In this document: positions 15,862 to 61,376 of the stretch, in pieces
Layout: every line of letters starts with the position of its first letter
How positions within the stretch are numbered: the stretch's first letter is position 1
Assembly (NCBI GenBank): GCA_032718475.1
Contig: JAUCBJ010001254.1
Coordinates: 1-64,000, forward strand
Source: Nemertoderma westbladi
Lineage: Eukaryota; Animalia; Xenacoelomorpha
DNA: 64,000 nt
Reading direction: 5' to 3'
The notes under the pieces: generated by a model
Seen by the model: only the letters and a program-made list of their open reading frames with translations
Told to the model about the DNA's origin: nothing
Databases searched by the model: none
Program-made: the position numbers and the translations under genes

Positions 15862-16309
15862 CCTTTGGGTGGTGCCTTACCAAGGCGCTATAGGATGAGT
15901 GATAGGTTTAGATGGTTTATTTCAGTTCGATGGCCTATCTCTCTCTGAATTTCTGAGTTGTCGCCTATTCTTTACACTACTTAATTATGAAGCTACTAAA
16001 TGTACCCTAAATAGCAATTTTGTCCGTTACTTTAATCATATTCCAGAATTTCCTTTTCTACTGTTACCATAATTTGCTAATTTTTAGCCCTATTCTTATT
16101 TTATTTTAATTTAATTTAATTCTACTGTCCTACTACTTACTATTGCCTATGGATTATTCTATTTTATAATCCACATTCTGGCCTATTCTGTGGGCCTGTG
16201 CAGTACAACAGTATGCGTCGCGTGGCCACACGACCCACCCAGCTGCACTCACACGCCCCCCTCCCGCCACTCACTACTGACTAATATCTATACTATATAT
16301 ACCCTTCTA

Positions 16310-16562
16310 CCTCTATCTCTTACTAACTGGTACTACGTACCCTCTTACTAACTTCTAACTCTCTCTAACTAACTAACGGTACTACGTACCCTCTAACTCT
16401 TACTCTCTCTAACTAACGGTACTACGTACCCTCTTACTACTCTAACTCCACTGACTAACGGTACTACATACCCTCTTACTAACCTCTAACTCCACTAACT
16501 AACGGTACTACGTACCCTCTTACAACTCTAACTCCACTAACTAACTAACGGTACTACGTACC
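16310..16562. repeat. Minisatellite (~40-46 bp unit), left part
   Basis: ctaactaacggtactacgtaccctcttactactctaactcca units. Confidence 0.9.
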
Positions 16563-17428
16563 TATAAAGGACATCGCCCGCCTCCTATCCTAACTAATTT
16601 CAAATTTGTCTGTCTGTCTGCATTTGGCTGTTTCGGTTGGTTTGGGAATTCTAAGTCAGTAAGTATAAAAGAAAAAGACGAACAATCCAACTGTCTGACG
16701 AGTGCAAGGTCCAGGATATAATCCACCTAATCTAATTATAACCGAAAAGCTAGGACCTTGACGCTATTCCGGCTAGATAAGGCTTTAGTCCACTACAGTA
16801 CTGGATGATAGATTGGTAAAAGATAAATATATGATAACATAATAATATACTTGCATTTATTTTATTTACAGAGTTAGGTATGGCATATGGTACCGTTACA
16901 TTACATATAATAACTGAATAATAAATCAACTAATCTAGGGTATTGATAAATGACTAAATAATGACTGAATGAGATTAATATTATCGGGCAGTTAATAATA
17001 CCGTATACTTCTGTCTGTTCTTTATAAAATAGTTACCGGTCCCGCACTGTCTTAGGTAATAGTACAATATTATATTACAGGGTATGCAAGCAAAATCTAT
17101 ATCTACATCTAACTATCTAACCATCTAACATCAGAATATTAGTGGGAAAATCCGCACATGTCAGACATGGTGAGTTGAGACTGCCAGACTGCAGACAGCT
17201 TACTGCTGTTGTACTGACTAGCTATTTTACAGCTGTCAGTCAGACTGTTGACTGCATTCTGGTCACGTGGTCAGCTCACGGTCGACTCTTACTAATTAAA
17301 TAATGAAAGTAATTATGTATACTGTATTTATTGCTACGAACTGAAATGTATTATACTGTAGGTTGATTATTTTATACTTATACTATATTATATTAAAATA
17401 TTTGAGTTACGAGGAGATGGTGAACACA
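16563..17428 (-). repeat. 3' LTR of C
   Basis: Direct repeat of 27894-28759, preceded by the PPT on the minus strand. Confidence 0.97.
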
Positions 17429-17990
17429 CTCCTCCGCTGAACTGAGTGAAACTTAGTTCAAAAAAAATCTTGTCACCTCTCATCGTAGCGAATATAAACA
17501 CGCACCAAAAACTAAAATAATAATGATTGAGCCTTCTGCCTGTTTCACTCAAAACGAAAATAATGCACCTCATTAATAAAGTACAAATAGTAATACAAAT
17601 AGTAATAATATATAACTTCAGTCTATTCCATTATAATGTATGTACGGCGACCACCACTTTTAAAATTAAACAATCTAAGCACAATCTCAAGGCTAAAAAA
17701 TATTTTTCGTTACATATTATATAGGGTGTTTCTCCATTACTTATTTCTTCAAATAAAGTATATTAAAAAATCTAGCATAAAGGGTTCTGTAATAAGTTCA
17801 CTTTGTGGATTACTAAGACAAAATAATAATAATTCATTATAGAGACCTCTGGCTCATTAAAATAGTTTCCATACAATTCTGGGTTTACCATAAAGGCGCC
17901 ACAAAAGTGGGTCAAAAGACATGTTAGTTAAACACAAACACTAATAGAAATAATAATAATTAATAATTTACTATTATCGTTTTAGGTACA

Positions 17991-20900
17991 TTACTCGCTG
18001 GTTTTATTTACTGCCTCCACTAATTCCTCTTCCAACAAACAACACCGTTCGATCGACCGTTTAAGTTTTCCACTTGCTGTTTGTAATTCGACAGTTCTAA
18101 CTAGTCCATCATTCCCTGGAAAAACATCACATACTCTCGCTAAATTCCAATCATTTCTCCTATTACTGTCGTCCTTTAATAAAACTAAGTCGCCCTTTCG
18201 GACGTTTCGCGTTACGAATTGGTTTATTTTTCGTTTGTGCAATGTTGGCAGATAGAACTTCTGCCACATATCCCAAAACTCATTGGCACATTCTTGACTA
18301 CGCCTCCACGCCTTTCTTGAGCTCAGGTCTCCCGGATCAGGAGTTTCAAGAGGTAATCCTATACCTCCTCCTACACCGAGAATTTTGTTGGGAGTTATTG
18401 CTGTTATTCCACTAGGGTTATCAGTAACTTGAAATAACGGTCTAGAATTGATGGAATATTGAATCTCCGCAAGTGCTGTTCTCAAAACGTCAAATGTAAC
18501 TGTTTTATTACCAATTGTTGCTGCTAGCGCTTCCTTTGTAGAGCGGACCATACGTTCCCATACACCCCCAGCATGAGGATTAATAGGTGTTATATTCTTC
18601 CATGTTATATTTCTTGCAGCGAGTTCTGATTGGAGTTTATGTTTATTCAAGTCCTTTACAACCTGTGTCAATTCATTATTTGCTCCAATGAAGTTCGATC
18701 CATTGTCGCTGTACATAAGTCTAACATTGCCTCTGGTTGATATGAATCTCCGGTATGCACAAAGAAATGCATCTGTTGACGCGCTTTCAGCGATATCTAA
18801 ATGTACTGCCCTTGTTGAAAGACAAGTAAACAATACTCCATAAACCTTCATCGTTGTTCTTACTCGTTTGCACATTATAGGTCCCCAGTAGTCAACTCCA
18901 CAAGTTTCGAAAGGCAATCCTCCAATTACGAGTCTTTCTCGAGGCAAGTCACCCATTCTTTGTACTAATAATTCAGCATTACGTTTTCTACACACATAAC
19001 ATTTCTTTAGTAAGCGACGTATTCGAGGCCTTGCTTGAACTACCCAATAAGTCTCCCTCAACTTAGCTAGAGTATGATCTTCTCCTTTGTGTAGTATTTT
19101 CCAATGTACATCGTATATTAATGAGTCAATTATCCAAGAATCCTTAGGTATAATTATTGGTTCTTTGTGATCAATAGGTATATCGGCATTTTTAATCCGC
19201 GAATCGATTTTCATAATTCCACTTACTAATTTGGGACACAAAGATTTCAGTTGAGAACTTCCAGAAATAAGTTTATCTTGTGCCAATGTTTCATATTCAT
19301 CGCAATATTTCCTTCTTTGCTCAAAGCCAATAATTCCTCTGGCGCATGAATTACTTTCACTTACAGTTAAAGGAGAGAACTTAACCTTTTCACCTCGCAT
19401 CATTTTAATCCGCCAATCAACTAGTCGACGTATCCATCCCAACTTCCTACATGTATCTGTAAAACTATTGGAATGTGTGAGAAGTTTTTTAACAGATTCC
19501 ATTCCATCATCGTCTGCAGCTATCCAATAACTAACTCCTTTCAAACTTCCTTTGTAACTAATTTCAGCATCCTTTGGTAAATTCAGATGCATTTCGTTTA
19601 TAGGTGGGGTCCAAGTTTCCTCACAATCCTTTAAGAATGCCGGGCCATTCCACCACTTGTCTTCTGCTAATAAATGTTTCGCTGTTAAACCACGACTAAG
19701 GAAATCGGCTGGATTGTCTTTACCTGCACAATGATGCCACTGTTCAACCTCACTTGTCCCCATAATTTCTTGAACTCGATTTGCTACGAACACCTGAAAC
19801 CTATGTTCATTATTAGCTATATATTGAAGAGCCACCATTGAGTCACTCCAGTAATAATGACGAACTCCACATGGGTCTTCTACTAAAGGTAATTCCTTGA
19901 TAATAATTCGTGCGTTTCTAATGGCAATAACAGCTGCTAGAAGTTCAAGACGGGGTACTGTAACTTTCTTCATTGGCGCTACTCTCGCCTTTGACATTAT
20001 GAGTGCGGTTTCAACACATCCATTAAGTGGCTGTCTTCGTAAGTACGATACTGCCCCATAACCTGCTTCTGATGCATCACAAAAATGGTGAATCGAGTAT
20101 ATATCATCGGTATCTCGTGTTTTGAAGAAAGGTCGTGGTATTTGTAATTGTTCTAATCCAATAATATCATCCTTCCAGAGCAACCATTCTTTAATAATAT
20201 CTTTGGGCAGCTTAGCATCCCATGTCAACTTAGCTTTCCACATCTCTCGTAATAGTAATTTTCCTTTCAGGATAAATGGTGTTAGAAATCCTATTGGGTC
20301 ATAGACGGAACTCAAGAGTGATAAACTTCCTCTCTTTGTTAATCTGTAAGTCTCTTTATTAGTTGAGTATGTAAATACATCTTTACTTGGAATCCATTTC
20401 ACTCCTAATGCTCTTGAAGACGAAATCAACATAGAAGAAACACCATCTAGATCTAAGTCTTTGGGGACATCTTGCAAGCCAATGACTTTTTCTTTGGGTA
20501 GGTTTGACAAAAACTCTACACTATTACTTATAAACTTTGTTATATTAAAACCTCGATTATCTAAGCACTTTATAATCCCCATAGCCACTCTCAGGGCCTT
20601 TTCCACCGTTGGTTGAGAATTGAGGCCATCATCAACATAAAAACCATAGAGAATTGCTCTTATCACTTCTATTGAGAAATGTTCTCTTTGGTCCAATGCC
20701 GCTTGTTTTAATCCATAAGTGGCGACACATGGCGAATCCTTCTTTCCAAATGCATGAACCCTCATTTGCATAACTGTGAAGTCATCCAAATTTCCACTCT
20801 CTGGGAAATCCTCAATTGGCCCATCAAACCACAGGATGCGCATAGTATCACTGTCACTGTCTGTAGTCCTTAGCTGATGAAACATCTTCTTAATGTCACA

Positions 20901-21383
20901 CATAAAGCAAATAGAATGACATCGAAATCGCATTAAACAACCAAAAATACTGTTGTAAATATTGGGACCCTGCATAAGCAACTTATTCAAACTCATTCCA
21001 GAATATTCGGCAGCCGCATCATTTACAATTCGAATTTCTCCTGGTTTATTCGCATTTTCGACAAAGTGAGTAGGTAAATAATATGTTCGCGGTGACTCTA
21101 TTAAATCATTTCCTGCTAGAATTCTGGCATGATCATTCTTCAAATACTCATGTAAGTTTTCAACATACAATTTCTCAATCTCAGGTCTTTTAGACAGGCG
21201 TTTCTTTAAACCTTTTAGTCTCTGTATAGCTAATGCTTTGTTGTTTTTTAAACATCTTTCTTTGTCTTTCCACAACATACCTATGGTATAGTGACCATTT
21301 TCGAATGTAATTGTATTTTTCAAAATTTCTAATGACTTAAGATCTTCCTTCGAATAACCGAGTTCGATGTTGTCTACATCCAT
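17991..21383 (-). CDS. pol: Bel/Pao Pol: reverse transcriptase, RNase H, integrase
   Basis: RIVNDAA, CDIKKMFHQ, FYVDD (RT); FCDAS, PRLELLAA, WSDS, NPADFLSRG (RH region); HHCC H..H..CYVC, GVDYWGP, SDNGSNF, WERMV (IN). Confidence 0.97.
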   Translation of the reverse strand: MDVDNIELGYSKEDLKSLEILKNTITFENGHYTIGMLWKDKERCLKNNKALAIQRLKGLKKRLSKRPEIEKLYVENLHEYLKNDHARILAGNDLIESPRTYYLPTHFVENANKPGEIRIVNDAAAEYSGMSLNKLLMQGPNIYNSIFGCLMRFRCHSICFMCDIKKMFHQLRTTDSDSDTMRILWFDGPIEDFPESGNLDDFTVMQMRVHAFGKKDSPCVATYGLKQAALDQREHFSIEVIRAILYGFYVDDGLNSQPTVEKALRVAMGIIKCLDNRGFNITKFISNSVEFLSNLPKEKVIGLQDVPKDLDLDGVSSMLISSSRALGVKWIPSKDVFTYSTNKETYRLTKRGSLSLLSSVYDPIGFLTPFILKGKLLLREMWKAKLTWDAKLPKDIIKEWLLWKDDIIGLEQLQIPRPFFKTRDTDDIYSIHHFCDASEAGYGAVSYLRRQPLNGCVETALIMSKARVAPMKKVTVPRLELLAAVIAIRNARIIIKELPLVEDPCGVRHYYWSDSMVALQYIANNEHRFQVFVANRVQEIMGTSEVEQWHHCAGKDNPADFLSRGLTAKHLLAEDKWWNGPAFLKDCEETWTPPINEMHLNLPKDAEISYKGSLKGVSYWIAADDDGMESVKKLLTHSNSFTDTCRKLGWIRRLVDWRIKMMRGEKVKFSPLTVSESNSCARGIIGFEQRRKYCDEYETLAQDKLISGSSQLKSLCPKLVSGIMKIDSRIKNADIPIDHKEPIIIPKDSWIIDSLIYDVHWKILHKGEDHTLAKLRETYWVVQARPRIRRLLKKCYVCRKRNAELLVQRMGDLPRERLVIGGLPFETCGVDYWGPIMCKRVRTTMKVYGVLFTCLSTRAVHLDIAESASTDAFLCAYRRFISTRGNVRLMYSDNGSNFIGANNELTQVVKDLNKHKLQSELAARNITWKNITPINPHAGGVWERMVRSTKEALAATIGNKTVTFDVLRTALAEIQYSINSRPLFQVTDNPSGITAITPNKILGVGGGIGLPLETPDPGDLSSRKAWRRSQECANEFWDMWQKFYLPTLHKRKINQFVTRNVRKGDLVLLKDDSNRRNDWNLARVCDVFPGNDGLVRTVELQTASGKLKRSIERCCLLEEELVEAVNKTSE

Positions 21384-24300
21384 CCATCCATCATGTCAAC
21401 GTCCCAAAACTCCTTCATGTGATTATCCAAGATTTCATCTTTTCCTCTTTGCAAATCCTTTAATTGTTGTATCAATTCAATCGGAATAGTTTTATGTATT
21501 TCCTCATGAACTAAATATGTGCAATATTGGGCTAATCCTGGACTTGGATAAATTGGACCTAGGGCTGTCCAACCAAAAACTGTCTCGATGGCCACTGGAT
21601 CTATATCACGTGGTCCTGGAACTTCATTCAGATGCCTATGTGCAGCTGGAGTTGTAATACCAATTATTAAAGTTACAGCTGGGATATCAACATCTATAAA
21701 TTCTGGAATATGTCTGAGATGCTGATACTTTTCTCGAGCCTCATCATTTAATTTATATTTCTCAAATTTGACATTGTCTTTAACTAATACATTATTTATT
21801 CTGGTCGAATAATCATATCCTGGCATAATAGCATCAACTATAAGACTAACTTGCCCAACTTTAGTACGCTGGTTATTAGATGTGATTGTAGTCAAACTAA
21901 TTTCAGTTTTCTCAGTTTGCAATTTCAACTCCTTGACCACAATTGTATCTGAAAATGTAAGACTTCCACAAGTATCAATTAATGCATATGTCGTTAATGA
22001 TGCATCCCCTTGACCAACTCCTTTTATTCGAACTGGAACTATCTTCTGCAACAATCTTGTTTGCTGCACTTCTTGAAAGTTGGAAATAACCTTCAGTGAC
22101 GCCTGAATCATGTCCACTGATTTTTGAATTTCGATTTCCTCCCCCGCATTGGCTATTTCCTCATTAGGTCTACCAATTTCGGCTGATTCATTACAGGCTG
22201 TAACATTTAGTTCACATAGCCTCTCAGCGTGAATTGATTCTGCAGAATCATATTTCACTTTATAGTGTCTTGATGCCATATTTGGGCCCCCCGCAGCGCT
22301 AGCACTGCCAATCATGTTAGTAGTGTTAGTAATCAGTTGTGTAGTCGGTGTCGATCTCACACTAAATGCATTACCACAACTAGTCACATGCCCCATTTGT
22401 CCTGTTTGTCCGGGGCTTGTCATGTTACGCACGTACAACTTAGGATCATAACCATGCAATAATGTATGATGACTACCATTACACACATCACACCATATAT
22501 TCCATGGACATTGATACATAATATGGCCCTTATTAGTACACCTATGACACACACCTTCACTCATAAGATAATTACCTCTCTGTACAGTATCTAACTTAGC
22601 TAAGTTCATACAGCGACCTACATGGTGCGTCCTTGCTGTTGGCAAATTTAACACTCTTTCACAATATATACAATTTTTATCTCCTACTACACCTGGTGTT
22701 ATCGCAGTCGTAACTGGTCTCAGTTGTATCTGCCTACCAATATTGTATCCCCTCCCTCGAGGAACTGAACTATTGTACATATTATTGTCTCCCCTACTGG
22801 GCCTATTGTTCCCTATTCGTGCTGGTAAAACAGACCTACTAAAGTCTGGCTGAGAATAGCCACCTCGGCCTGGTTGATAATAATTTGATCTAAAGGCAGC
22901 ACCATTAGACCAATTTGTATATCTAGATTGCCTGTTTAAAGGCATTGACATTTGTCTATTTTGATTGGGTTGTTGTTTAAAATTGCTTGCAGAACTTTTC
23001 ATAGGCTTACCAGCTGGATCCCAAATTTCATGCTCTGCCTCTACACCAAATAATTCATTACACATGGAGTAACTATGCATTTCAATGAATGCTGATAATT
23101 GTACAAGGTCAGGGTCCCGTCCTTTCAGACGTTTAATATTCTCAGCGTGTGGCCTCCATTTATTTTGTATAAAATCTGGTAAGGTCCATAGTGTATTTTG
23201 TACATTTGAGGACAATGTTAAATATTCCTGTGCTCCTATATACTGGAGACAATTTACCATAGACCGAATCATATCTGAGTATCTACGAACATCTTTACCA
23301 GATGCATTGTTTGGGAATTTGGGATGTTCCCTAATTTTCTGTTCACATTTTCGCTGTATTAGAGCTGGATCCCCATAACGTCTAGATAAAAGTCCCCATG
23401 CTCTAACATAGCCATCTGGTGTCCCCCGTAATGGTTTCACTAATGTATATGCTTCACCCTTTAAATGTTTTAATAACAGCTGTAATTTTTCATCCTCACT
23501 CCAATACCTTTTTTGAGCTACATTTTGGACAAATTCTATTTTAAAATTTATGAATTCAATAGGGTCTCCTGCAAATTTCTCATCATCAGAAGGTTGCCAC
23601 ACTGTCTGTCTATCATGAAGTCTTTCAAAATACTCCCTTGTTAAACTATCAATTCCACCACCTCCAAAATAACGTTGATTTGGATTCTGGATCGAATTAT
23701 CTTGTCCTGTGTTTGGGTATCTTCTTTCCCTGTTTGGGTGACCTCTTCTATCATCCCAATCACCATCATCTCCTCCATCAGGTGGTCCACTTCCTCCATC
23801 AGGAGGTCCACTTCCTCTACAAGAGCTATGTGAATTACCGTCATTGAAATCATAATCTCCCCTATATTGTTCGGGATTTCCACCGTTCCTATTATCTCCT
23901 GCTGCTGAATTTCCTGATGGAATCATTCCCCCTTGGAATTCACTAAACCTTTCCACTGGTGCCTTTTCTGGTGCTCGATATGGTCCAGTATGGCAAGCAA
24001 AACCCTCTCCTTTATCTTCATATTGCAGAAAATAAGAAGGGGGTGGTCTCTGAGGAATGTCATTGCTATCAACTGGTGCATAGATCCATTCTGGCTTATC
24101 TGGATGTAACATTTCTTTAAACTTTGCCCCATCTTGCGACTTATATTGATCCATTTCAATCTTCAAAGGATTTCTATTATAAAGGAGATATGGATTCGCC
24201 TCTGGTTGATTAATCCGAGCTAATGGATCATCTTTCCAAATTTCCCGTTCATGGTCTTGCATCATTTTTGTATCCGTAAGAGCTGTTTGTTGTATGGATT

Positions 24301-26815
24301 CGGCTAATAACTCTGTTCGTTGAACTAGCACATCATCATCATCATGTAACGCATAATTACATGCCTCTAAATAATTTTCCTCGTATCGTAAATGACCATA
24401 CTTATCATTAGGTATTTGCTTAGGAATAGCTCTGTCTACCATTGGTTCTTGTGTATCACCACCTGCCACTATTTGGCGAATTGACCTGAGTGGTTGTGCC
24501 TGCTGCTCATCCTTCTCTAAAGCCAAATGATCCATGTTAAATTTAGCAGGTTTATCATTTATTGTGATAGTGTTAGCCCGTGGAATTGGCTCCACATTTA
24601 ATCTACTTCTTGTAAAGTGATCAAACTTGTTACTTAGTTCAAAATATTTTCCATCATTTACTGCTTGTATTTTTAAAAAATCATTTTGTACTCTTTGCAT
24701 TTCCTTTGTAATACTACCTACTATATCTTCAACATGTTCTAAAGCATTAACTGTATGACTCTCTTGTCGATTTTTTAAAATAGGTTCTCTATTGAAAGAG
24801 TTAATATCCATATTGGGATCAAAATGGACATGCAATCTCGGTTGTAAATATGGGGTTGTAGTAGTGACAGGCATCAAAGGCGTTGATGCAGAAGATATGC
24901 CTACATTTAGATCTTCAAAACTGTCATTAAAGTGATAATCATCAAAAAATGTTATCAAACTGCTATTTGAATTTTGTAAGCTACTGGCTTGTTTGTGTAC
25001 ACTGAGAGGCTCTGGATCTCTCTTTTTATTAAAATGTACATTTAATACATCTGAGCCCCTTTGGGATGTTGAAATTTTTGTAGCAACATTAGAACCTGCC
25101 ACACATTGAACCAATCCTACATCACTGCTCAGCCTAGCTGAGGTGCTAATCCCTTGAGTAGTTAGACCTATATCTTGCAAAAAATTTGTATCTAAATTTA
25201 CCATTTCAGAACAAATGGGTCCACTAATACTAACTGCTGGTTCTAATGAATAACCTACATTAACTACCTTTGGTTCATCATCTGTATCTGCTCTGCCTAC
25301 ATTTCTTAATACTGTAATATTATCAAGAGGCTGTGATTCATTGAATAATTCCGGTACATTGATACTACTAATTGCATCTGACACCAGATTATCAATACTG
25401 GTATCGAAATCATCGGCTTCTTGATCCAATTCAGCTGTAGTTGTACTGATTACCTCTCCATGGGTATTTTCATAATATCTTACCCATTGTGCCTCCTCAA
25501 AGTTAAGATTATCGGCTGATATTAATCTATTGACAGTTTCTTCATGCAATCTTCTCCTACTCTCCTCCGCACTGAGCTCAGCTTCCTTCTCTTTATTTAA
25601 ACGCTCTTGTTCCGTTTCTATTTGAGTCAGAGTCCGCTCTTTCTCAATTCTTTGTTCAACTAATGTCTTCTCCAGTGCAGCTTGTTCACTTTCATATCTA
25701 ATCTTCTCTAACTGTTGCCGATTTTCTTCTTCAATTCTCTCTAAGTCCAAACGTTTCTCATTGCAAATTCGTTCCTGCTCTAAACTATTTCTGCGCTTTG
25801 TATTTTCAGCTTCACGTTTTTGGTTTTTCAGCTCCGTTTCTGATATCAAAAGCCTTTCCTGCTGTTGTAAATCAACTTTCAATAACTCATTCTGAAAATT
25901 AATGGCACTACTGCTTGCTCTCCTACCTGCTTCTAATGCCGCTGCTTTCTTTGCTATTTCTAAGTCACTCTTAATTATCTCCCCTTGAAGTGTAGCGTTG
26001 ACTTGAGCAGCTACACGTTCTTTACGGGCCTTCACTCTTAACTCAATAATTCGCTCCATAGTACAGCTGGCCGAACTTCGTGCTGAAGACCTCGACCGTT
26101 TACTACTATGAGATTTACTGCTACCTAAACTACTTGCTACTGATTCATTACATACAGAAATATCTTCTTCAAAATTAACATTCTGAACATAATTGGAGCA
26201 CTTTTCTTGAAGGTCAATTCCTTCCTTTGGTACATCAGGTTCAACTACAAATTCTTGTGCTAAAATGGTCTCCCCCAATCCTAGCACATTCTTATTTACT
26301 ACATCACCTACACTATTATTTATTCCACACCTTTTCTTTAATCTATTCCATGAATTATTAAGTGCATCCTTTTCCTTAGTTTGTGCTGTCACATACTTAG
26401 AATCATCTACTCCTGCTAAACGTACTAGTTCCTGAAAATTAATATGATATGTCTGTAAAGAATGGTCTGTTCTATTTATTATATCTCGTACTTCCTCCAA
26501 TCTGGCATTATCACTAATTCTAGCCGACAACTTGTCTATAACAGATTGGATATGCGTTCGTGAAGTCGTGATAGATCGTTTGAGCTGCTTTACCCGATCC
26601 TGACTCCCCAGGTTGGCCAAACCTCGAGAGCTAGAACGAACATTTTCAGCAACTCTCCGACCATCAAGCGACCCACTATAGCAAGTTCCAGATCGTGTCA
26701 TATGCTTGTCTCGGCATGTTGCACTTGCCTCTGCACCTGCAGGTTGCGAGGTTTGTACAACATTAACTACTGTACTGGTACTGTCAACATTACTTTCTAA
26801 ATCTTTCTGTTCCAT
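21374..26815 (-). CDS. gag: Bel/Pao Gag + aspartic protease (1813 aa)
   Basis: KFAGDPIEF...LKGEA...RYG core; knuckles CHRCTNKGHIMYQC and CDVCNGSHHTLLH; protease ALIDTCGS, LIIG and TVFGWTALGP. Confidence 0.95.
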   Translation of the reverse strand: MEQKDLESNVDSTSTVVNVVQTSQPAGAEASATCRDKHMTRSGTCYSGSLDGRRVAENVRSSSRGLANLGSQDRVKQLKRSITTSRTHIQSVIDKLSARISDNARLEEVRDIINRTDHSLQTYHINFQELVRLAGVDDSKYVTAQTKEKDALNNSWNRLKKRCGINNSVGDVVNKNVLGLGETILAQEFVVEPDVPKEGIDLQEKCSNYVQNVNFEEDISVCNESVASSLGSSKSHSSKRSRSSARSSASCTMERIIELRVKARKERVAAQVNATLQGEIIKSDLEIAKKAAALEAGRRASSSAINFQNELLKVDLQQQERLLISETELKNQKREAENTKRRNSLEQERICNEKRLDLERIEEENRQQLEKIRYESEQAALEKTLVEQRIEKERTLTQIETEQERLNKEKEAELSAEESRRRLHEETVNRLISADNLNFEEAQWVRYYENTHGEVISTTTAELDQEADDFDTSIDNLVSDAISSINVPELFNESQPLDNITVLRNVGRADTDDEPKVVNVGYSLEPAVSISGPICSEMVNLDTNFLQDIGLTTQGISTSARLSSDVGLVQCVAGSNVATKISTSQRGSDVLNVHFNKKRDPEPLSVHKQASSLQNSNSSLITFFDDYHFNDSFEDLNVGISSASTPLMPVTTTTPYLQPRLHVHFDPNMDINSFNREPILKNRQESHTVNALEHVEDIVGSITKEMQRVQNDFLKIQAVNDGKYFELSNKFDHFTRSRLNVEPIPRANTITINDKPAKFNMDHLALEKDEQQAQPLRSIRQIVAGGDTQEPMVDRAIPKQIPNDKYGHLRYEENYLEACNYALHDDDDVLVQRTELLAESIQQTALTDTKMMQDHEREIWKDDPLARINQPEANPYLLYNRNPLKIEMDQYKSQDGAKFKEMLHPDKPEWIYAPVDSNDIPQRPPPSYFLQYEDKGEGFACHTGPYRAPEKAPVERFSEFQGGMIPSGNSAAGDNRNGGNPEQYRGDYDFNDGNSHSSCRGSGPPDGGSGPPDGGDDGDWDDRRGHPNRERRYPNTGQDNSIQNPNQRYFGGGGIDSLTREYFERLHDRQTVWQPSDDEKFAGDPIEFINFKIEFVQNVAQKRYWSEDEKLQLLLKHLKGEAYTLVKPLRGTPDGYVRAWGLLSRRYGDPALIQRKCEQKIREHPKFPNNASGKDVRRYSDMIRSMVNCLQYIGAQEYLTLSSNVQNTLWTLPDFIQNKWRPHAENIKRLKGRDPDLVQLSAFIEMHSYSMCNELFGVEAEHEIWDPAGKPMKSSASNFKQQPNQNRQMSMPLNRQSRYTNWSNGAAFRSNYYQPGRGGYSQPDFSRSVLPARIGNNRPSRGDNNMYNSSVPRGRGYNIGRQIQLRPVTTAITPGVVGDKNCIYCERVLNLPTARTHHVGRCMNLAKLDTVQRGNYLMSEGVCHRCTNKGHIMYQCPWNIWCDVCNGSHHTLLHGYDPKLYVRNMTSPGQTGQMGHVTSCGNAFSVRSTPTTQLITNTTNMIGSASAAGGPNMASRHYKVKYDSAESIHAERLCELNVTACNESAEIGRPNEEIANAGEEIEIQKSVDMIQASLKVISNFQEVQQTRLLQKIVPVRIKGVGQGDASLTTYALIDTCGSLTFSDTIVVKELKLQTEKTEISLTTITSNNQRTKVGQVSLIVDAIMPGYDYSTRINNVLVKDNVKFEKYKLNDEAREKYQHLRHIPEFIDVDIPAVTLIIGITTPAAHRHLNEVPGPRDIDPVAIETVFGWTALGPIYPSPGLAQYCTYLVHEEIHKTIPIELIQQLKDLQRGKDEILDNHMKEFWDVDMMDGWM

Positions 26816-27880
26816 TTTATATCCCTTTGTTATTACAAATTTTATTTATTTATAAATTTTTATTCTTTCTTACTTCTAATTATATATCAGTCTTATGTTC
26901 TATTCCTATCACTTCCTATCTGCCTATTTTAAACAAATATCGTGCTGTAGAGATAAGTCCTTTATATAATTCCTTTCTCCTTTCTGGCTGTCTGGTAAAC
27001 CTACAGTAATATATACCTACCGCTATAACGGCAGAACGGCAATTTCTTTCCTATAATTTATTTAGGCCTAGGCCTATATCTGTACATAATTAATTTCTTG
27101 ATAGGGGTAGGCCTACCAACTAAAGAGAAACAGGCAGACAGGTATTCGTCAACAATGTTCATGTACAAGTTTCCTTCATATATAGTATCGACGGTATATA
27201 TAAAGGCCTACTAAAGGTATCACTGTATCATAATTATAATAAATATTCCGGTCTGTTCAAATTTTATCTGTCAGTCTTTCTGTATTTACTTAGGTAATTG
27301 GTAATAGACGTGTATCTGCCTATCAACAATCCAGTCAAATAAGTTTAGCAATACCGGTATTAAAATTCTGCCTATTACAGTATTACATAAGAAGAAGATC
27401 TGCCATTATAATATATATCATATCATATCATATCATATTCATAAGACAATCAACATTAAATAACAATATTATTCAAATTTCATAAATTACTCAAAATTAG
27501 GCCTAATTACCGGTATCCAAATTCGAACAAAATTAAGCCTACACAAACTGAAAGGCAGAAAAGGTAATCATCAGTACTGAACCGGTATATAATGTACGTA
27601 TATATATATATCATATCATTCTGCCATTACAACATTAAATTCAAAATTTCCAAATATCAACCAATCAATATTATTTACATAGGCTGATAGGCCTAAACAG
27701 CTAAATACTGAAATATGCTGTAACCTACCTACCAACCCATACTGCCATATAAGCCTACCGTTCCATCAGTCTGAAAGTTATATAGCCTAGATCTGTCAGT
27801 CTGTAGACTGGTAGATGACTAGCCTAAAAAGCTGTAGGCCTACAGTCAGACGGTAGGCCCCTAACTACTGAATTAATCCT

Positions 27881-27893
27881 CTAATATTCTGAT
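27881..27893 (-). promoter_or_regulatory. Primer-binding position of C (non-tRNA, complementary to own LTR)
   Basis: Sense ATCAGAATATTAG abuts the 5' LTR and is the exact complement of sense CTAATATTCTGAT at 28461-28473. Confidence 0.75.
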
Positions 27894-28759
27894 TATAAAG
27901 GACATCGCCCGCCTCCTATCCTAACTAATTTCAAATTTGTCTGTCTGTCTGCATTTGGCTGTTTCGGTTGGTTTGGGAATTCTAAGTCAGTAAGTATAAA
28001 AGAAAAAGACGAACAATCCAACTGTCTGACGAGTGCAAGGTCCAGGATATAATCCACCTAATCTAATTATAACCGAAAAGCTAGGACCTTGACGCTATTC
28101 CGGCTAGATAAGGGTTTAGTCCACTACAGTACTGGATGATAGATTGGTAAAAGATAAATATATGATAACATAATAATATACTTGCATTTATTTTATTTAC
28201 AGAGTTAGGTATGGCATATGGTACCGTTACATTACATATAATAACTGAATAATAAATCAACTAATCTAGGGTATTGATAAATGACTAAATAATGACTGAA
28301 TGAGATTAATATTATCGGGCAGTTAATAATACCGTATACTTCTGTCTGTTCTTTATAAAATAGTTACCGGTCCCGCACTGTCTTAGGTAATAGTACAATA
28401 TTATATTACAGGGTATGCAAGCAAAATCTATATCTACGTCTAACTATCTAACCATCTAACATCAGAATATTAGTGGGAAAATCCGCACATGTCAGACATG
28501 GTGAGTTGAGACTGCCAGACTGCAGACAGCTTACTGCTGTTGTACTGACTAGCTATTTTACAGCTGTCAGTCAGACTGTTGACTGCATTCTGGTCACGTG
28601 GTCAGCTCACGGTCGACTCTTACTAATTAAATAATGAAAGTAATTATGTATACTGTATTTATTGCTACGAACTGAAATGTATTATACTGTAGGTTGATTA
28701 TTTTATACTTATACTATATTATATTAAAATATTTGAGTTACGAGGAGATGGTGAACACA
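27894..28759 (-). repeat. 5' LTR of C
   Basis: Direct repeat of 16563-17428; sense termini TGTGTT...TTTATA. Confidence 0.97.
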
Positions 28760-29045
28760 GTACCCTCTTACTACTCTAACTCCACTAACTAACTAACGGT
28801 ACTACGTACCCTCTTACTAACCTCTAACTCCACTAACTAACTAACGGTACTACGTACCCTCTTACTAACTCCTCTAACACTCCTCTTACTACTCTAACTC
28901 CACTAACTAACTAACGGTACTACGTACCCTCTTACTACTCTAACTCCACTAACTAACTAACGGTACTACGTACCCTCTTACTAACCTCTAACTCCACTAA
29001 CTAACTAACGGTACTACGTACCCTCTTACTCTTACTATCTAACTT
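28760..29045. repeat. Minisatellite, right part (same array as 16310-16562)
   Basis: Same unit resumes in register after the TSD. Confidence 0.9.
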
Positions 29046-29099: not shown

Positions 29100-30743
29100 T
29101 TATTTTATTTTTATGTGTGGGAAGGGCGTCTCGCCCTCAATCCCACCCCGTGTTGCTCTTGTCGGTATAAACTTATCCGGAATAACGAACCTGTGTTCCG
29201 TCGCATCATGGATAGGAGATATATTACTACTTCCCGCAATCGAAACAGGTTCTTTGGTCGTAATTGGTGCAAACATATGAGTTACTTGAGGAAATCGTTG
29301 ACATAATTCACCAACCAGCTCTCGTCCTCGCTCAGGTGCTCCTACACTTCCTTCCTTTATTTGCTCCTGAATTTGGCGGTGCCTTACCTCTATTCGGTCT
29401 AGATCGTGTCCGTCTCGAGATCTCATCGATCGATCGTGGGCTTTAAGATCCAGATCCTCCTTGGCGTTAGCTAATTCTCTCGCCTTCCTTTCGAGTTCGA
29501 AATGAAGTTTAACCTCTTTCTCGCGTTGTTCCGTTTGTTGTTGTTGCGCCTCGAACTCCGCTAGTCGTATAGCTGATTGAGCCTTCATTTGCCGTTTTTT
29601 CATTTCGGCTCTCGCTTCTGAAACTAACCTTTGTCGCTCTAACTCAGCCGCTGCCGCTGCCGCCGCCTCTTGTCGCTCTAACTCAGCCGCTGCCGCCACC
29701 GCTTGTCGCTCTAACTCAGCCGCTGCCGCTGCCGCCGTTTGTTGTGCAATGTCCAACTCTAACCTTTCCATCTCGGCTGCTTCCAACTCGGCTTGTTCTT
29801 GCAGATGAGAGATTCTCGCAACATTCGCAACGCGTAGTTTCTCTTCCTCTACTGCTGCTTGTACCATTAGCAGTAGAGTTTGTTCCTCCATCTCCTGTTG
29901 TTGTCTGTAGAGCTGCTGTTGTCGAGCAATTTCTGACGTTACCATACTCACCTCGCCAATTTCGCTGCAAATACTCACCAATGATTGATCCATTATTCCC
30001 GGTGCCAGTTCGATTTGTGCGGATGAAGTTTCCCTCGTAGCCTCCGGCATGGTTTCCCAATCTCCGACGTCTTCGCCGCACATACGTAAGTGATCCGTCA
30101 GATGTTTCAATTGTCCATCCAGCCTATACAATTCCTGTTGTTCCTCGGGCTGTAATAACTCGTCGGAAACTGACTCACCTAGCAACTGGTCCACTTGTTC
30201 CTGTTGTATCTGTCTAACAGTCGTCTTAAACTGAATTAGTTTCTCCCTGGCGATTATTAATTTCTCGAGGATTCTAAGCTGAGTGTCCGCGTCCTGTCTT
30301 TGTCTAGCTAGATCTTGTAGACTGATTAGGTTATCTACGGACTTATGTACTTTACTTTGTACTCTAACCTGTAGGGTGTAAAACTCGAACCGAGACATCG
30401 GAGCGGTCAACTCGTCTAATATGCGTTGGCCTTCTCCAATACTCCTGGTAATATGCGCCATGTATCCTCCGACGCTTCTAACAATGCTCTCTTGGCTTCC
30501 TACTGAACTTACCATGTCCGTTTCCCTGTATCTAGGTTGCGGGACCGTTAGAAAATCCTCAGTCCTGCCGTCGCCTCGTACTACGGCATCCGGTACTCCC
30601 GTTGGATGTACTGGTGACGCGCACGGTGTAGGTTCGGTAGGCTTGCGAGTCTTCCCTTGTGGTTCTTCCGCTACTGACTTATCCGCGTCACATGAGTCAT
30701 AGTCGGTTTGTGTATTCTTCGTATAGTCCTGTTTGTCACTCAT
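29100..30743 (-). CDS. gag: Truncated Gag N-terminus of Bel/Pao-related element D
   Basis: RSVGGYM...ARQRQDADTQ resembles RSAAGYV...SKRRQDTSLQ of B1 Gag; Ala/Glu coiled coil; ends in an AT-rich junction before the gag core. Confidence 0.65.
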   Translation of the reverse strand: MSDKQDYTKNTQTDYDSCDADKSVAEEPQGKTRKPTEPTPCASPVHPTGVPDAVVRGDGRTEDFLTVPQPRYRETDMVSSVGSQESIVRSVGGYMAHITRSIGEGQRILDELTAPMSRFEFYTLQVRVQSKVHKSVDNLISLQDLARQRQDADTQLRILEKLIIAREKLIQFKTTVRQIQQEQVDQLLGESVSDELLQPEEQQELYRLDGQLKHLTDHLRMCGEDVGDWETMPEATRETSSAQIELAPGIMDQSLVSICSEIGEVSMVTSEIARQQQLYRQQQEMEEQTLLLMVQAAVEEEKLRVANVARISHLQEQAELEAAEMERLELDIAQQTAAAAAAELERQAVAAAAELERQEAAAAAAAELERQRLVSEARAEMKKRQMKAQSAIRLAEFEAQQQQTEQREKEVKLHFELERKARELANAKEDLDLKAHDRSMRSRDGHDLDRIEVRHRQIQEQIKEGSVGAPERGRELVGELCQRFPQVTHMFAPITTKEPVSIAGSSNISPIHDATEHRFVIPDKFIPTRATRGGIEGETPFPHIKIK

Positions 30744-32830
30744 TTTGGTAGTTGTAAGTCAAGTAAAGTGAGTGTCAAAGTATCAAACTTACCGTATTTA
30801 TATCTAAACGGTATTAATTACAGTCATATAAAATGGATAATGGCAAATGGATAAAATTAGCCTAGCGGCCAATTTTACAACAAATAAATGTCACGGAGTA
30901 AGTATATAATAAAATTAGCCTACCGGCCAATTTTATAACAAATAAAATCGGATAACGATATACGTTATCAAAAAGGTAGATTAAACACAAATAATACAGA
31001 CTAATTCAGCAATAAACAAAGAAATCGTACGGAATGCATAAATACTTGAGACAGTGGAACCCACAATAATTTTAACTAATACGGTAATGCCTAACTGATT
31101 TATGCAACTTTTCGAACTCACCCCCTCCAATGATTCTCCAGAAAAACAGATTCCCAGATACAAACCGGACGTGAACCTTTCCGTTTCCAGCGTTGTGGAC
31201 GAAGTGCGATTTTCCCAACCAAAATTGTTGAGTTATCTATCTCCCAAACTTGCGAAACACGGTCTTGCTCTCGTTACAGTCTAGAAATGAGCTCTGAATC
31301 CTGAAAAACAAAAGAGTTCGGTTTTACTTTTACGAAAATTTTGTACCGGTACAATATGGTATTTAAACCCTTTTTAAACACCGGTATTCAATTCCAAATA
31401 TTTTACACGCGGTTCAAATCAAAATTTTATTTCAAAATACTAGCACTTAGCTAATCAAATACAAATTTTACCTCAAAATACAAAATTTCAAATAATTTTA
31501 GTCCTACTGATCCGTAGTTCAGTAAAACATATTCCTACTGTGCGAAGAGACGTACCTGATATCCTGCAATATCTTACTGTAAAGTTTGTAAATCAAAACA
31601 TAATCCGACCTTCTCACCAAAACAGTAAACTCTAAGCAAGCAAATCGATTGCAGTATCGGTCTCTTATAACCGGTGAGGCAGAAAACAGTCTACGAACGG
31701 ACAAACTTCGATGAAACAAAATCCCGCGCAGCGAATCCTAAAATCGGGCTGACTCACTGACGGACTAAGGGCGCTCGTATACTTTGCCGCGGTGTGATTT
31801 ATATGGGTGAGAGATAGAGGCGCTAGCTAGATGTCTTACTAGCGGGCAAAGTGCAGTATGGACAAAAATTATTTTATATATTTTGAGGTGTAAATAATTT
31901 CTAACGCGTGTGTGTCTTGATTCTAACAGTCAAAATCAGTTTTAGATCCTTCATATATATAATTACTGGGTCCGGTGTACATTTTACAAATATTCTAATT
32001 TTATAGCTTGTAGGTCCAATACTCACGAATGATGAGGCTCCTTCCCCTTTTGTGTATTTCCAGGACTCAAATTCAGGCATAAGGTTAATACTACGCCCAG
32101 AATTCGGCAATTTAATTTACCAGGTCCCTAATACTAAGAAGAAATGTGTTAGTTTACTACAGTAGGCGTACAGTTACAAATAGCTAGCCTGGTGTTCTAT
32201 CTTGAATTTTGGTTGCCTAGGTGGGCACGGCAACTCCCTATCAGAATGTCGGCGGGGACACGGTAGATGTTAGTATCCCTAATAGCCTCAATTTATATGC
32301 ACCTAGCAGTAAACTGCCTTACCGCCTGAACGGTACAATCCCAATTCAGGTAAAAACACAGTAACCCTTCCTGGCCTACAAGTTCTAATGCAAATGGACA
32401 CCGTTGCACTACAAACAAGCCACCGACGCACCTATACCTGGCAAATGAGTTAGGCGTACAGCTTGCTGCACCCTAATAATGTGTATGCCTTGTACTGGTG
32501 TGCCTGTGTTCTATCTGTGTACTAGTATCTCTCTGCCTGATCTCCTCCTCCCCCGTAGGAATATGAAGGTCTACTGTGGGTTTTTCTGAATTAAGACAGT
32601 ACAGTCCCTAAATGTAATTTTAGCGCACAGCGTGTCAGTACCTCTACCTTCGATCTTAGGTCTTACACTTAGGTAACGAGGCATCGAACGCTGTCTAACC
32701 TTTCAGGCGATGGGCGAATAACTAAGAATGGGTATTGCGGGTTGTCTCCTTTCTACATTCCTCCGATGTTCCCGTCTATTGCCGCGGTCCGCTGTCTAGC
32801 CAGCCATCTGTCTCTCAGTGGTGTTCACCA

Positions 32831-36910: not shown

Positions 36911-38455
36911 ATGGATAAGGTAAAGGGTAGACCTGGAAATACTACCTGATACCTTGTATGTCCGTAATTTACCTCCTCATGACCTCCCATCTGTCAATAC
37001 CACAATCTGCTGCCATTGTGCTCAACCCTACAGTACCGGGCCGTCAATAACCACACGCTGCAATGAAAGGAAAGGGTAGTATATTGAAACCATGAACCAT
37101 CACGGCCATAATGATTAATTACACACTCTAACTATTTAGGTAGGACAGTTACACCCATAGAGAAATGCGAGCGGTATATATTTTTCGGCTAGAGTTCCGT
37201 AAAGTACTACATTTTTAAAACTTTAAATCATTGTTACTAGGGCAACGTTGAAGAGTTCTAGAACAATAGAAAAGTATTACATATTATTCTAGAACATAAA
37301 TCAAATTAAAAATGTAATGTTCTAGAACATTTTTAATTTCAAAATAGCTAGTAAATTAATAAAAATTTATTTTTAAATAAATTTCTGAATACATTTAAAT
37401 AAATATTGATCATTATAGTGTTTGTATACCGATATAACTGATTAGTTTATATATTTCCATTGGGTATTTTGTTGGCCTTTAAAATCTCATGGAATCCGTT
37501 CAATTATCCTTTTCTTATCTGTCGCGCCTCTATATGTTATTCTGTCAGATTTTAGGATAATTTATCTTCATAGTTAATGCACTCATAAGACATAGCTCTG
37601 GCGTCGTATATATTTATATTATTTTTGCACGTACCTGTCTTTTAAATGCCTTAATTTGACTTGTGCATTTCGTACCCCAAAAAGGATTGAATAATCTTTT
37701 TAATCACTGGCAATTTTAAATTTGAAAAATAACTAGCTATATTTTCTAGAACATTATATTTGTAATGGGATCCGAGTTGGCAAGAGATCCCGACCGGTAT
37801 TTGTGTCGTGGTTGATACGCGTCGCCGCGTCCGCTAATGTGGTTTTCACTGAAGGCTTGGGGCTGAAAGGCCGAAGGCCGGTATAATAAAGTTCTGAGTT
37901 TAAAGCTTGTGGATATTGATAATCTCTGATGTATGAGTACCGGTAATATAGCACAATCAGTATTGTACAGTGACAGCAGTACCGACGACGGTTTAAACCG
38001 TTTAACATCTACTCTGAATATTAGTAAACTGAATCATAATTAACACTGGATAACATCATCCATCCCACTAACTTAATCCCCCGCGCATCTACTAGATAAG
38101 GCCCTATGTACACTACACCATATGGCATTATCCCCGTTCACCACAATTCAAACAGTTCTGTGGCGACCTCTCTCGCCCTCTCATTCACCAATTCGCCCTT
38201 CCCAAATCGGACTAAGTAGTGAAAATGTTTATTGCACTCACCGAGTCTGTGGCATAACTTGGGCTTGTCTACCTTTCCTCCTTTCTTGGCGTCATTGGGG
38301 ATCTTTCTCGTGGCGATGTACCCACATCGTAGGTGATCGCTCGTCCCAACGTCCTCCTCCTGAACTTTCTAACCTCCTCTCCTCGCCTGGCGTGGCACCG
38401 TCGGCCCCACCATTGCTGTTCTGGTGGGCCACTCGCCGCCTGTAGCCACTGGTTG

Positions 38456-39632
38456 TATAAAGGCTTTTGCGGATCTAGCTAGTTATTTTCCCCGCAAAGT
38501 ACTCTGTAGGTGTTTTAAAGGACATAAAAAGCCGTTTCCTTACTGTACCGGTGTTTTAGTGGACATAAAAAGCCATTTCTTCTGTATGTGTACTTTAGCG
38601 GACATAACTAGCGATTTTATGTCGCAATAAGCCAAAATCCTCTTGATACAGTGTAGTTACGATGACGACATCTATCAGCTGATATGTACAGGTACACGTG
38701 TAATTTTTCCCTTGTTCTTTGTTCGGTCGACCAATCAGAGCGATTTTCTTTGTGTTGGACAGTGCATATATAAACTCACGCAATTCAGTCAGTATGTATC
38801 TTTCTAAGCCCAGAACACCGGCTTAGGATTCTTCTGTACTTCTGTGGAAGTTTCAGACTTTAGCCAAACATTAGAACGGCTTTGATCATAGAAACGTATA
38901 ACTGTTATCCTGCCATACCTGGCATACCAGACTCACCTAACCTTTCACCGCATTATTTTACTGCTATTTGCTGTCGATTATTAATTGTTAGAAGTTGATT
39001 GATATGTTGTTATATTTGGAGAATATCGATGAATAATCATAAAACCCCAATCTTCTTGATATACTGAAGGTTAGAGAGACCGGTTACATATAGCAATTGC
39101 GACTTACATTAAAGTGGTTTTGGAGTGAATCTAATGCTATTTAATAGGCCCTACATGTGTCGGTTGCTATTCTCCTTATGTATGATCAAATTCAGTGAAG
39201 GTCGGCAGATCAGTGTGCAGCAGTGTGAGGTAGTGTGCATGAGTGTGACAGGTAACAAAGCATTTCCTAAAGAATGCGCCTTATACGTAAATCATTAGCC
39301 ATCCTGTTGTGCTTAGTGTAAGTCATAACTCTGTTTACATACTTAGAGCGCCACGTCCTAAAGGAACTGTTGATATTTCCCGAAAGTGAATAATATTTGT
39401 CAGAGATTATATATTAACGATCAATCGAATAATACAGTAGGCCTACACCGCAATAAGGTCAGAGCTTCCGAATCCAGTCTCCCGGGTATATCCAGCGGGT
39501 GAATGGTCGCGCATAGGCTGGCTTCGGCTAATGTAGTGTATCCAATACTCGTCATAGGCTAAAGTCGATTTATAACCTAGAAGACACCTAAATTTGGAAG
39601 GTTAAACTGCTAAAGGTCTGAAAGCGCGAACA
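38456..39632 (+). repeat. 5' LTR of B1
   Basis: Direct repeat of 61377-62548; starts TA here versus TG in the 3' copy; TATATAAA at 38767 and TCAGT initiator-like motifs at 38785-38793. Confidence 0.95.
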
Positions 39633-39643
39633 ATAACAGTTAT
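39633..39643 (+). promoter_or_regulatory. Primer-binding position of B1 (complementary to own LTR)
   Basis: ATAACAGTTAT is the reverse complement of ATAACTGTTAT at 38898-38908. Confidence 0.75.
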
Positions 39644-47193: not shown

Positions 47194-47289
47194 CCGCTCC
47201 CAGAAAATGGGATTTTCAGTCTATAAAATATAAAAATCACAGTTTCTAAAACATAAAGATACTCTAAACAGTTAGTCTTTCTTACGCAG

Positions 47290-55989: not shown

Positions 55990-56001
55990 TATATCCGTTA
56001 T
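55990..56001 (-). promoter_or_regulatory. Primer-binding position of B2 (complementary to own LTR)
   Basis: Sense ATAACGGATATA is the exact complement of sense TATATCCGTTAT at 56759-56770. Confidence 0.8.
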
Positions 56002-61298: not shown

Positions 61299-61376
61299 CT
61301 GTTTAGAGTATTTTTATATTTTAGAAACTGGGATTTTTTATATTTTATAGAATTAAATCCCATTTTCTGGGAGCGG

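What the first reader, a model, noticed from the sequence alone, without database searches (positions are those of the whole stretch)
27881..28476. Autonomous-type Bel/Pao element C also has a PBS complementary to its own LTR
Seen: the 13 nt abutting the 5' LTR (sense ATCAGAATATTAG) pair perfectly with CTAATATTCTGAT at 28461-28473, and 15/16 when extended, closing a ~570-nt loop; there is no TGG. Rough chance of such a match is 866/4^13, about 1e-5, and higher for AT-rich DNA. The primer sequence is unrelated to the B-family one beyond a terminal AT, so the geometry rather than the sequence is conserved. C encodes RT and RNase H, so it provides a candidate enzyme set for the mechanism.
Basis: partly seen in the sequence, partly recalled or inferred. 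Interest (0 to 1): 0.9.

Follow-up and report, generated by a model that had tools for sequence, protein, structure and literature searches.

The report
Self-priming signature in Bel/Pao retrotransposon
A recently inserted Bel/Pao jumping gene has, exactly where a host tRNA normally lands to start DNA copying, 13 letters that pair with its own terminal repeat, and distant relatives keep such pairing with different letters, so this group likely starts copying itself with a piece of its own RNA, contrary to the family's official description.

Summary
Observation confirmed. Element C (minus strand; LTRs 28759-27894 and 17428-16563, 2 differences; 5-bp TSD) is Bel/Pao. The 13 nt right after its 5' LTR lack TGG and are the exact complement of LTR nt 287-299. 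This is the longest LTR complement among 10,440 internal positions; 1 of 5,000 shuffles reaches it. Two B elements in the window show the same with mirrored changes. In 11 outside Bel/Pao loci with a visible LTR end, 3 have TGG and no self-match; all 8 without TGG have a 10-15-nt self-match, 2 contiguous and 6 only across a splice junction in the LTR. C groups with the self-matching loci (99/93, long branch). Best reading: Tf1-like self-priming (0.7). Not shown: start site, cleavage, priming. There is no RNA data and no host tRNA set. Folding predicts the duplex only if transcription starts within about 20 nt of the site. This copy has a frame break before RT, so 'autonomous' fits the family, not the copy. 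No Bel/Pao self-priming paper appeared in 10 searches. This scan noted it before on other genomes. New variant of a known kind; interest 0.65.

The parts
27894..28759 (-). 5' LTR of element C, 866 bp, ends TG...TA
   Evidence: 99.8% identical to 16563-17428; edge confirmed by loose ends in 4 runs
28461..28473 (-). Predicted self-primer, LTR nt 287-299; predicted cut just 3' of it (sense)
   Evidence: exact complement of the PBS; primer role inferred
27881..27893 (-). Primer-binding site, abutting the LTR (offset 0), no TGG
28187..28197 (-). Two overlapping AATAAA hexamers (LTR nt 563, 568), downstream of the predicted primer; would leave about 290 nt of R for strand transfer
   Evidence: use as poly(A) signal inferred
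21374..26845 (-). gag-protease ORF, 1823 aa (first ATG 26815): DUF1759, three Cys-His boxes, atypical protease motif
17991..21395 (-). RT-RNase H-integrase ORF, 1134 aa, in another frame than gag-protease in this copy. RT D167 and YVDD 253-256; RNase H D440, E484, D518, D564; integrase HHCC and D835, D897, E947
   Evidence: predicted model matches RT and integrase structures
17429..17438 (-). Polypurine tract abutting the 3' LTR
16563..17428 (-). 3' LTR of element C; second copy of the primer site at 17130-17142
28760..28764 (-). 5-bp target-site duplication (GGTAC sense), upstream copy, inside a 44-48-bp tandem array
16558..16562 (-). Target-site duplication, downstream copy
55990..56001 (-). 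PBS of element B1 (LTRs 57211-56002 and 47193-45984); 12-nt complement at 56759-56770
39633..39643 (+). PBS of element B2 (LTRs 38455-39632 and 61376-62548); 11-nt complement at 38898-38908; two PBS differences from B1 are mirrored in the LTR site

Best explanation
Element C is a Bel/Pao LTR retrotransposon whose primer-binding site pairs with 13 nt of its own LTR instead of a tRNA end, so it likely primes minus-strand DNA synthesis with its own RNA, cut probably by its own RNase H. Shown in the sequence: the duplex, its end exactly at the LTR edge, the missing TGG, a poly(A) hexamer downstream of the site, intact RT and RNase H motifs. Inferred steps: (1) a transcript starting in the 5' LTR at or shortly before nt 287 folds so that nt 287-299 pair with the PBS; (2) RT-RNase H cuts after nt 299, as in Tf1, leaving a 3' OH at the LTR edge; (3) RT copies U5 and R back to the cut; (4) the R segment from nt 300 to the poly(A) site allows the first strand transfer, and the primer site is re-made from the 3' LTR copy; (5) plus-strand copying of the attached primer would rewrite the PBS from the LTR site, which would explain why the two change together. 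C lies in an aquatic-animal Bel/Pao clade where this arrangement looks general, in many members with the primer completed only by splicing an intron in the LTR.
For: Chance rejected. B1 and B2, whose LTRs are about 74% identical, differ at two PBS positions and both changes are mirrored at the aligned LTR site. Outside loci with a visible LTR end, 11 of 98 fetched: 8 of 8 without TGG have a 10-15-nt self-match at offset 0-3, 3 of 3 with TGG have 4-5 nt. Shuffles reach the best score in 0-1 of 200 for the eight. Only 7 of 182 cross PBS/LTR pairs reach 10 nt, 6 of them within one related group. Six of the eight matches span canonical GTAAG...YAG junctions, which argues that the pairing acts at the RNA level. 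A poly(A) hexamer lies downstream of the primer end in 11 of 11 self-matching LTRs. ML tree: C and 12 self-type loci fall in a 99/93 clade with none of 6 TGG loci. Folding gives the duplex P 0.84-0.96 for RNA starting at LTR nt 268-287. Tf1 precedent: 11-nt primer, RNase H cut (PMC7175516, passage).
Against: No experiment or RNA evidence for start site, cut or extension. The duplex is predicted not to form (P 0.0) if RNA starts at LTR nt 260 or earlier; forcing it costs 6-10 kcal/mol. For B2 it is not predicted from either start tested (P 0.0-0.01). B1 and B2 share CCAAT, TATA-like and TCAGT motifs about 100 nt upstream of their site, which suggests an internal rather than 5'-terminal primer, unlike Tf1. 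C has no TATA box 30 nt upstream of nt 287. In L083 a blind 13-nt hit overlaps a TATA-like box and would lie upstream of the start. L035 and L066, inside the clade, gave no significant match in the blind scan (11 of 30 and 16 of 30 shuffles; LTR end not located). C is a long branch (1.99) and the one-clade test did not finish. The host tRNA set could not be searched.
Confidence: 0.7

Rival explanations
1. The primer is LTR-derived but not made the Tf1 way. It comes in trans from short transcripts ended at the 5' LTR poly(A) signal, from solo LTRs or the second packaged RNA, or is cut by a host nuclease or small-RNA pathway.
For: A 567-nt loop (720-760 nt in B) and poor predicted cis folding from upstream starts. 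LTR contig depth exceeds internal depth in the runs, and a divergent LTR variant keeps the site but changes downstream. L083's hit overlaps a TATA-like box.
Against: The site sits upstream of the poly(A) hexamer in 11 of 11 cases, as cis priming needs. The cis duplex is strongly predicted for starts at nt 268-287. Non-autonomous B elements each match their own LTR, not C's (cross score 6-8).
Confidence: 0.15
2. The duplex is a structural or regulatory RNA element (packaging, dimerisation, translation switch, or sensor of start site or splicing), and priming uses something else.
For: Predicted pairing switches with the start site. Start-site control of a self-primer is described for Tf2 (PMC5341516, passages). 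Long-range leader pairings exist in tRNA-primed elements (recalled).
Against: The duplex ends 0-3 nt from the LTR edge in all 11 self-matching elements, where DNA synthesis must start. Self-match and TGG are mutually exclusive in 14 of 14 elements. No other PBS is seen.
Confidence: 0.09
3. A host tRNA half, a tRNA lacking CCA, or another host small RNA primes at this PBS, and the LTR match is incidental.
For: ICTV describes the family as tRNA-primed (PMC8742986, whole text). Half-tRNA primers are known in Copia lineages (PMC6317226, passages). The host tRNA set was not available.
Against: No TGG. About 8 unrelated PBS sequences each match only their own LTR, including across splice junctions. 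The B1/B2 mirrored changes are not expected for a conserved host RNA.
Confidence: 0.05
4. Chance complement in AT-rich DNA, or an assembly artefact.
For: Only 4 of the 13 pairs are G-C; 1 of 5,000 shuffles reached 13.
Against: Position-specific (1 of 10,440), repeated in B1, B2 and 8 outside loci. Contigs of four runs bridge both sites with no letter change listed.
Confidence: 0.01

Closest known systems
Tf1/Tf2 (Schizosaccharomyces pombe), Tj1 (S. japonicus) and the Tf1/sushi and Tcn1 groups of Ty3/gypsy chromoviruses
   Same: PBS directly after the 5' LTR is complementary to 11-13 nt of the element's own LTR RNA; no tRNA site; RT with RNase H encoded (PMC7175516, PMC4600332, PMC5341516, passages).
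   Different: C is Bel/Pao, not Ty3/gypsy. [quoted passage not shown] The loop is 567 nt. Many relatives need splicing to form the primer. Cleavage is shown for Tf1, only inferred here.
TAR lineage (Houba, Osr-1) of plant Ty1/copia
   Same: Self-priming predicted from the same sequence criterion: at least 10 nt complement starting 0-5 bp after the 5' LTR (PMC6317226, passages). C meets that criterion.
   Different: Other superfamily and kingdom; also prediction only.
Belpaoviridae / Semotivirus (Bel/Pao) as described by ICTV
   Same: LTRs of 0.2-1.2 kb, PPT of about 10 nt, gag then PR-RT-RH-IN order, Pao-type domains.
   Different: ICTV gives an 18-nt PBS for tRNA-Arg or tRNA-Gly and tRNA-primed replication; C has neither. 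C is 12.2 kb (ICTV 4.2-10 kb) and its LTRs end TG...TA.

Membership tests
Bel/Pao (Belpaoviridae) | LTR-flanked gag-pol with domain order PR-RT-RH-IN | tested here: met
Bel/Pao (Belpaoviridae) | Pao-type domains (DUF1759, Peptidase_A17, DUF5641) and triple Cys-His box in Gag | tested here: met
   Pfam E 1.6e-13, 9.6e-47, 2.9e-24; three boxes at aa 1392, 1433, 1452; hallmark per PMC554778 passage
Bel/Pao (Belpaoviridae) | Pol similarity to Bel/Pao proteins | tested here: met
   all 120 listed of 344 hits carry PF05380, 29-40% identity
Bel/Pao (Belpaoviridae) | 18-nt PBS complementary to the 3' end of tRNA-Arg or tRNA-Gly (ICTV profile) | tested here: not met
   no TGG, self-complementary instead. 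I treat this as a described trait of known members, not as the basis of the family, which rests on Pol.
[quoted passage not shown] | RT phylogeny with named reference elements | not testable with these tools
   no lineage-named reference among the hits; integrase spacing D(61)D(49)E is near Sinbad's D(62)D(49)E, a lead only
Self-primed elements (Tf1 mechanism) | PBS complementary to own LTR, at least 10 nt, 0-5 nt from the LTR end | tested here: met
   13 nt, offset 0
Self-primed elements (Tf1 mechanism) | Primer is the 5' end of the genomic RNA | not testable with these tools
   no RNA run listed; folding favours a start within about 20 nt of the site; B promoter motifs point further upstream
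Self-primed elements (Tf1 mechanism) | RNase H cuts the RNA duplex at the primer end and RT extends it | not testable with these tools
   catalytic residues present; activity needs an assay
Tf1/sushi group (Ty3/gypsy chromoviruses) | Ty3/gypsy-type Pol | tested here: not met
   Bel/Pao-specific domains and relatives; C works like Tf1 at most, it is not a member

The most novel reading that the evidence does not exclude
A large clade of aquatic-animal Bel/Pao elements has dropped tRNA priming. Its primer is an internal piece of the LTR transcript, in many members completed only when the host spliceosome removes an LTR intron, so splicing gates replication. Contiguous elements such as C arise repeatedly by loss of that intron; three sister pairs in the tree have one spliced and one contiguous member. 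The Bel/Pao RNase H would then cut an RNA-RNA duplex, an activity evolved independently of Tf1.
Probability: 0.45. Interest if true: 0.85.

Novelty: new variant of a known kind. Interest (0 to 1): 0.65.

Why it matters
The ICTV profile says Bel/Pao replication is poorly understood and tRNA-primed. Self-priming is shown for Ty3/gypsy Tf1 and predicted for some plant Copia. If right, all three LTR superfamilies have reached tRNA-free priming. A large share of marine Bel/Pao elements would be mis-annotated by tools that demand a tRNA PBS. C offers a simple test case, a contiguous 13-nt primer beside an unbroken RT-RNase H frame, for whether an unrelated RNase H cuts RNA-RNA duplexes. The spliced relatives would tie retrotransposon replication to host splicing.

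Tried and rejected
No whole genome is held, so no host tRNA search and no copy survey were possible. ARAGORN found no tRNA in the window or in 33 of 100 loci scanned. Rfam over 26800-28800 gave only a chance sRNA hit, E 0.73. Sequencing runs: no RNA holder listed; this says nothing on expression. The absence of letter changes in the two 13-nt sites across four runs is not evidence of constraint: 26 variable places in 1,000 nt predict only about 0.7 in 26 nt, and 18 indel rows were hidden. P0002 alone found no loci in viral or genome contigs; alignment A1 found none in viral contigs. A2 added only two short loci, L099 and L100, not analysed. C's nearest locus, L001, lacks its 5' LTR and PBS. 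The first blind scan over all CA positions was too noisy (10-12-nt hits arise in long regions; the 17- and 25-nt hits in L009 and L094 are not at LTR ends). My first splice scan missed offset-3 cases and was redone with offsets 0-5. L010 was tagged TGG in the FastTree run and relabelled self-type after a 14-nt junction hit. The 'self' and 'tRNA' labels of L002, L009, L010, L017, L030, L052, L093 and L004, L016, L074 rest on blind calls. The one-clade test did not finish. A splice-junction primer for C was tested and rejected: best spliced score 5 versus 13 contiguous. PDB sequence search found only weak integrase hits. PMC1563812 is not held. Look-ups of earlier findings by sequence and by genome were empty. 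A fancied likeness of the primer to tRNA-Leu ends or tRNA-Ile anticodon loops is recall only, was not tested, and is not used.

Full report
1. Anatomy. A self-comparison of the window gives an 866-bp repeat at 16563-17428 and 27894-28759 with two differences. On the minus strand it starts TGTGTT and ends TTTATA. It is flanked by a GGTAC duplication inside a tandem array, and a purine tract precedes the downstream copy. Between the LTRs lie a 1823-aa gag-protease ORF and an 1134-aa ORF. Pfam gives DUF1759, Peptidase_A17, an integrase zinc domain and DUF5641. All 120 listed of 344 protein relatives carry PF05380, the best at 38-40% from marine invertebrates. A predicted model (pLDDT 77) matches RT and integrase structures. 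RT, RNase H and integrase acidic residues are present. C is therefore a young Bel/Pao insertion. The two ORFs are in different frames with the break after the protease, and the protease motif is atypical. The dominant contigs of four runs differ from this copy at both places, so the copy is probably damaged while the family is coding-competent (inference).

2. The observation. The 13 nt after the 5' LTR are the exact complement of LTR nt 287-299, with 15 of 16 on extension and a 567-nt loop. One of 5,000 dinucleotide shuffles reaches 13; the composition-based expectation is 6.6e-5. Among 10,440 internal positions only the first reaches 13. Contig loose ends at 27892-27894 in 4 of 4 runs, with four different flanks, confirm the LTR edge and several insertions. 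These runs are at most 3 samples, and one may be the window's source.

3. Same window. B1 has 12 nt and B2 11 nt of anchored complement at LTR nt 442 and 444 (4 and 3 of 5,000 shuffles reach these lengths). The sites align, and the two PBS differences are mirrored. B elements lack RT and integrase; nothing shows that C mobilises them.

4. Outside relatives. Alignment A1 fetched 80 loci (the best of 586, from 23 of 64 parts scanned) and 18 more. Of these 98, 35 had a flanking direct repeat, and I judged 11 to show the LTR 3' end directly; the other 87 are not in this count. Three have TGG within 5 nt and a self-match of 4-5 nt. All eight without TGG have a 10-15-nt self-match at offset 0-3: contiguous in L048 and L075, and across a GTAAG...YAG junction in L036, L042, L053, L062, L077 and L094. 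I looked for junctions because earlier notes of this scan reported them. Shuffles reached the best score in 0-1 of 200, but they destroy splice sites and are lenient. The cross test is stricter: 7 of 182 foreign PBS/LTR pairs reach 10 nt, six of them among the related L036/L042/L062. The eight loci are about six independent primer types. A blind scan of 27 loci (26 without a visible end) gave 7 hits at 2 or fewer shuffles of 30-40 and three borderline at 3 of 40. The other 17 gave none; many of these contigs appear too short to hold both the PBS and the LTR, but L035 and L066 have a 5' LTR start and stay unexplained. In 11 of 11 self-matching LTRs a poly(A) hexamer lies downstream of the primer end, as strand transfer requires.

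5. Tree. On RT-RNase H (91 rows FastTree; 31 chosen rows IQ-TREE), a 99/93 clade holds C, L001, cnidarian, mollusc, echinoderm and fish proteins and 12 self-type loci, and none of six TGG loci. One self-type blind call, L010, is unresolved at the base. C is a long branch, several labels are blind calls, and the one-clade test did not finish. Three sister groups pair a spliced with a contiguous site. Reverse transcription of an RNA whose 3' LTR copy was spliced would give exactly such intron loss (inference); the direction is not shown, and C's own history is unknown because L001 lacks its 5' end.

6. Against and open. Folding predicts the C duplex at P 0.84-0.96 for starts at LTR nt 268-287, 0.28 at 264 and 0.0 at 260 or earlier; B1 0.97 from its site and 0.0 from nt 340; B2 0.0-0.01. 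Predictions over 650-900 nt without Gag chaperoning are weak, but they make the start site the key unknown. B1 and B2 share promoter-like motifs about 100 nt upstream of the site. In spliced relatives only 4-9 nt of exon 1 pair, so the primer is probably internal there, unlike Tf1. No RNA run was listed and no host genome is held, so the start site and the tRNA alternative are untested directly.

7. Mechanism. Most likely the leader folds back, RNase H cuts after nt 299, RT extends through U5 and R, and strand transfer uses nt 300 to the poly(A) site. Only the geometry and the enzyme motifs are shown; the steps are borrowed from Tf1. PBS/LTR covariation could be kept by copying of the primer during plus-strand synthesis rather than by selection (inference from retroviral replication, recalled); either way it points to a primer role. 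Odds: cis self-priming 0.70, LTR-derived primer by another route 0.15, structural role 0.09, host RNA 0.05, chance 0.01.

8. Literature. Whole text read: PMC8742986, which gives an 18-nt tRNA-Arg/Gly PBS and 'replication is poorly understood'. Passages read: PMC7175516 (Tf1: first 11 bases, RNase H cut), PMC4600332 (Tj1), PMC5341516 (Tf2 start-site control), PMC6317226 (Tf1/sushi, Tcn1, TAR; the 10-nt criterion), PMC6934838, PMC5443660, PMC3601003, PMC8220671. PMC554778 and PMC3118150, the two Bel/Pao surveys, contain no occurrence of PBS or tRNA in their main text. Ten searches listed no paper whose title or abstract start reports self-priming in Bel/Pao; unread listed papers were seen as listings only. 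Subscription journals, Repbase reports and all supplements were not seen and could hold a prior note. The primary Tf1 papers were seen only as reference titles.

9. Verdict. The feature is real and most likely a self-primer. The mechanism is of a known kind, but in a superfamily described as tRNA-primed, and the comparison points to a clade-wide trait with a splice-dependent form. This scan's earlier notes report the same on other genomes; they are unchecked leads and were not counted as support. New variant of a known kind; interest 0.65.

Noticed in passing
L036, L042, L053, L062, L077, L094 (3' LTRs): The PBS complement exists only across a canonical GTAAG...YAG intron (76-388 nt) inside the LTR; 11-15 nt matched, 5-7 of them in exon 2.
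   Followed up: yes
L093/L075, L009/L048, L002/L030: Three sister groups on the RT tree have one spliced and one contiguous primer site, suggesting repeated intron loss or gain; L075 and L093 form an open fork with a fish protein.
   Followed up: partly
window 38455-62548 and 45984-57211: B1 (minus) is nested inside B2 (plus). Both carry Bel/Pao gag-protease and a roughly 65-aa piece of pol but no RT or integrase; both have a 288-290-bp tandem duplication in the leader.
   Followed up: partly
window 16276-16562 and 28760-29030: C is inserted into a 44-48-bp tandem array.
   Followed up: no
window 27894 and 16563: C's LTRs end in TA, not CA; junction contigs in four runs place the edge at the same spot, so it looks like a family trait.
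   Followed up: partly
window 21374-21395 and about 21965-21982: Frame break within a short tetranucleotide run between protease and RT, and an atypical protease motif; the dominant contigs of 4 of 4 runs differ from this copy at both places.
   Followed up: partly
window 28449-28522: A lower-depth LTR variant in all four runs keeps the primer site but diverges shortly downstream of it.
   Followed up: no
L083 1563-2044: Probable tandem element; a 13-nt blind self-match overlaps a TATA-like box, which would put it upstream of the start site. Chance (1 of 30 shuffles) or a counter-example.
   Followed up: partly
window 4221-5456, 8600-9751, 11529-12065, 13292-15262, 29100-30758: Other retroelement pieces (two RT fragments, an aspartic protease ORF) and two long ORFs of 656 and 552 aa without Pfam hits flanking C.
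   Followed up: no
L081-L098: Bel/Pao elements lie in 18 contigs filed as bacterial genomes, probably host-animal DNA in those assemblies.
   Followed up: no
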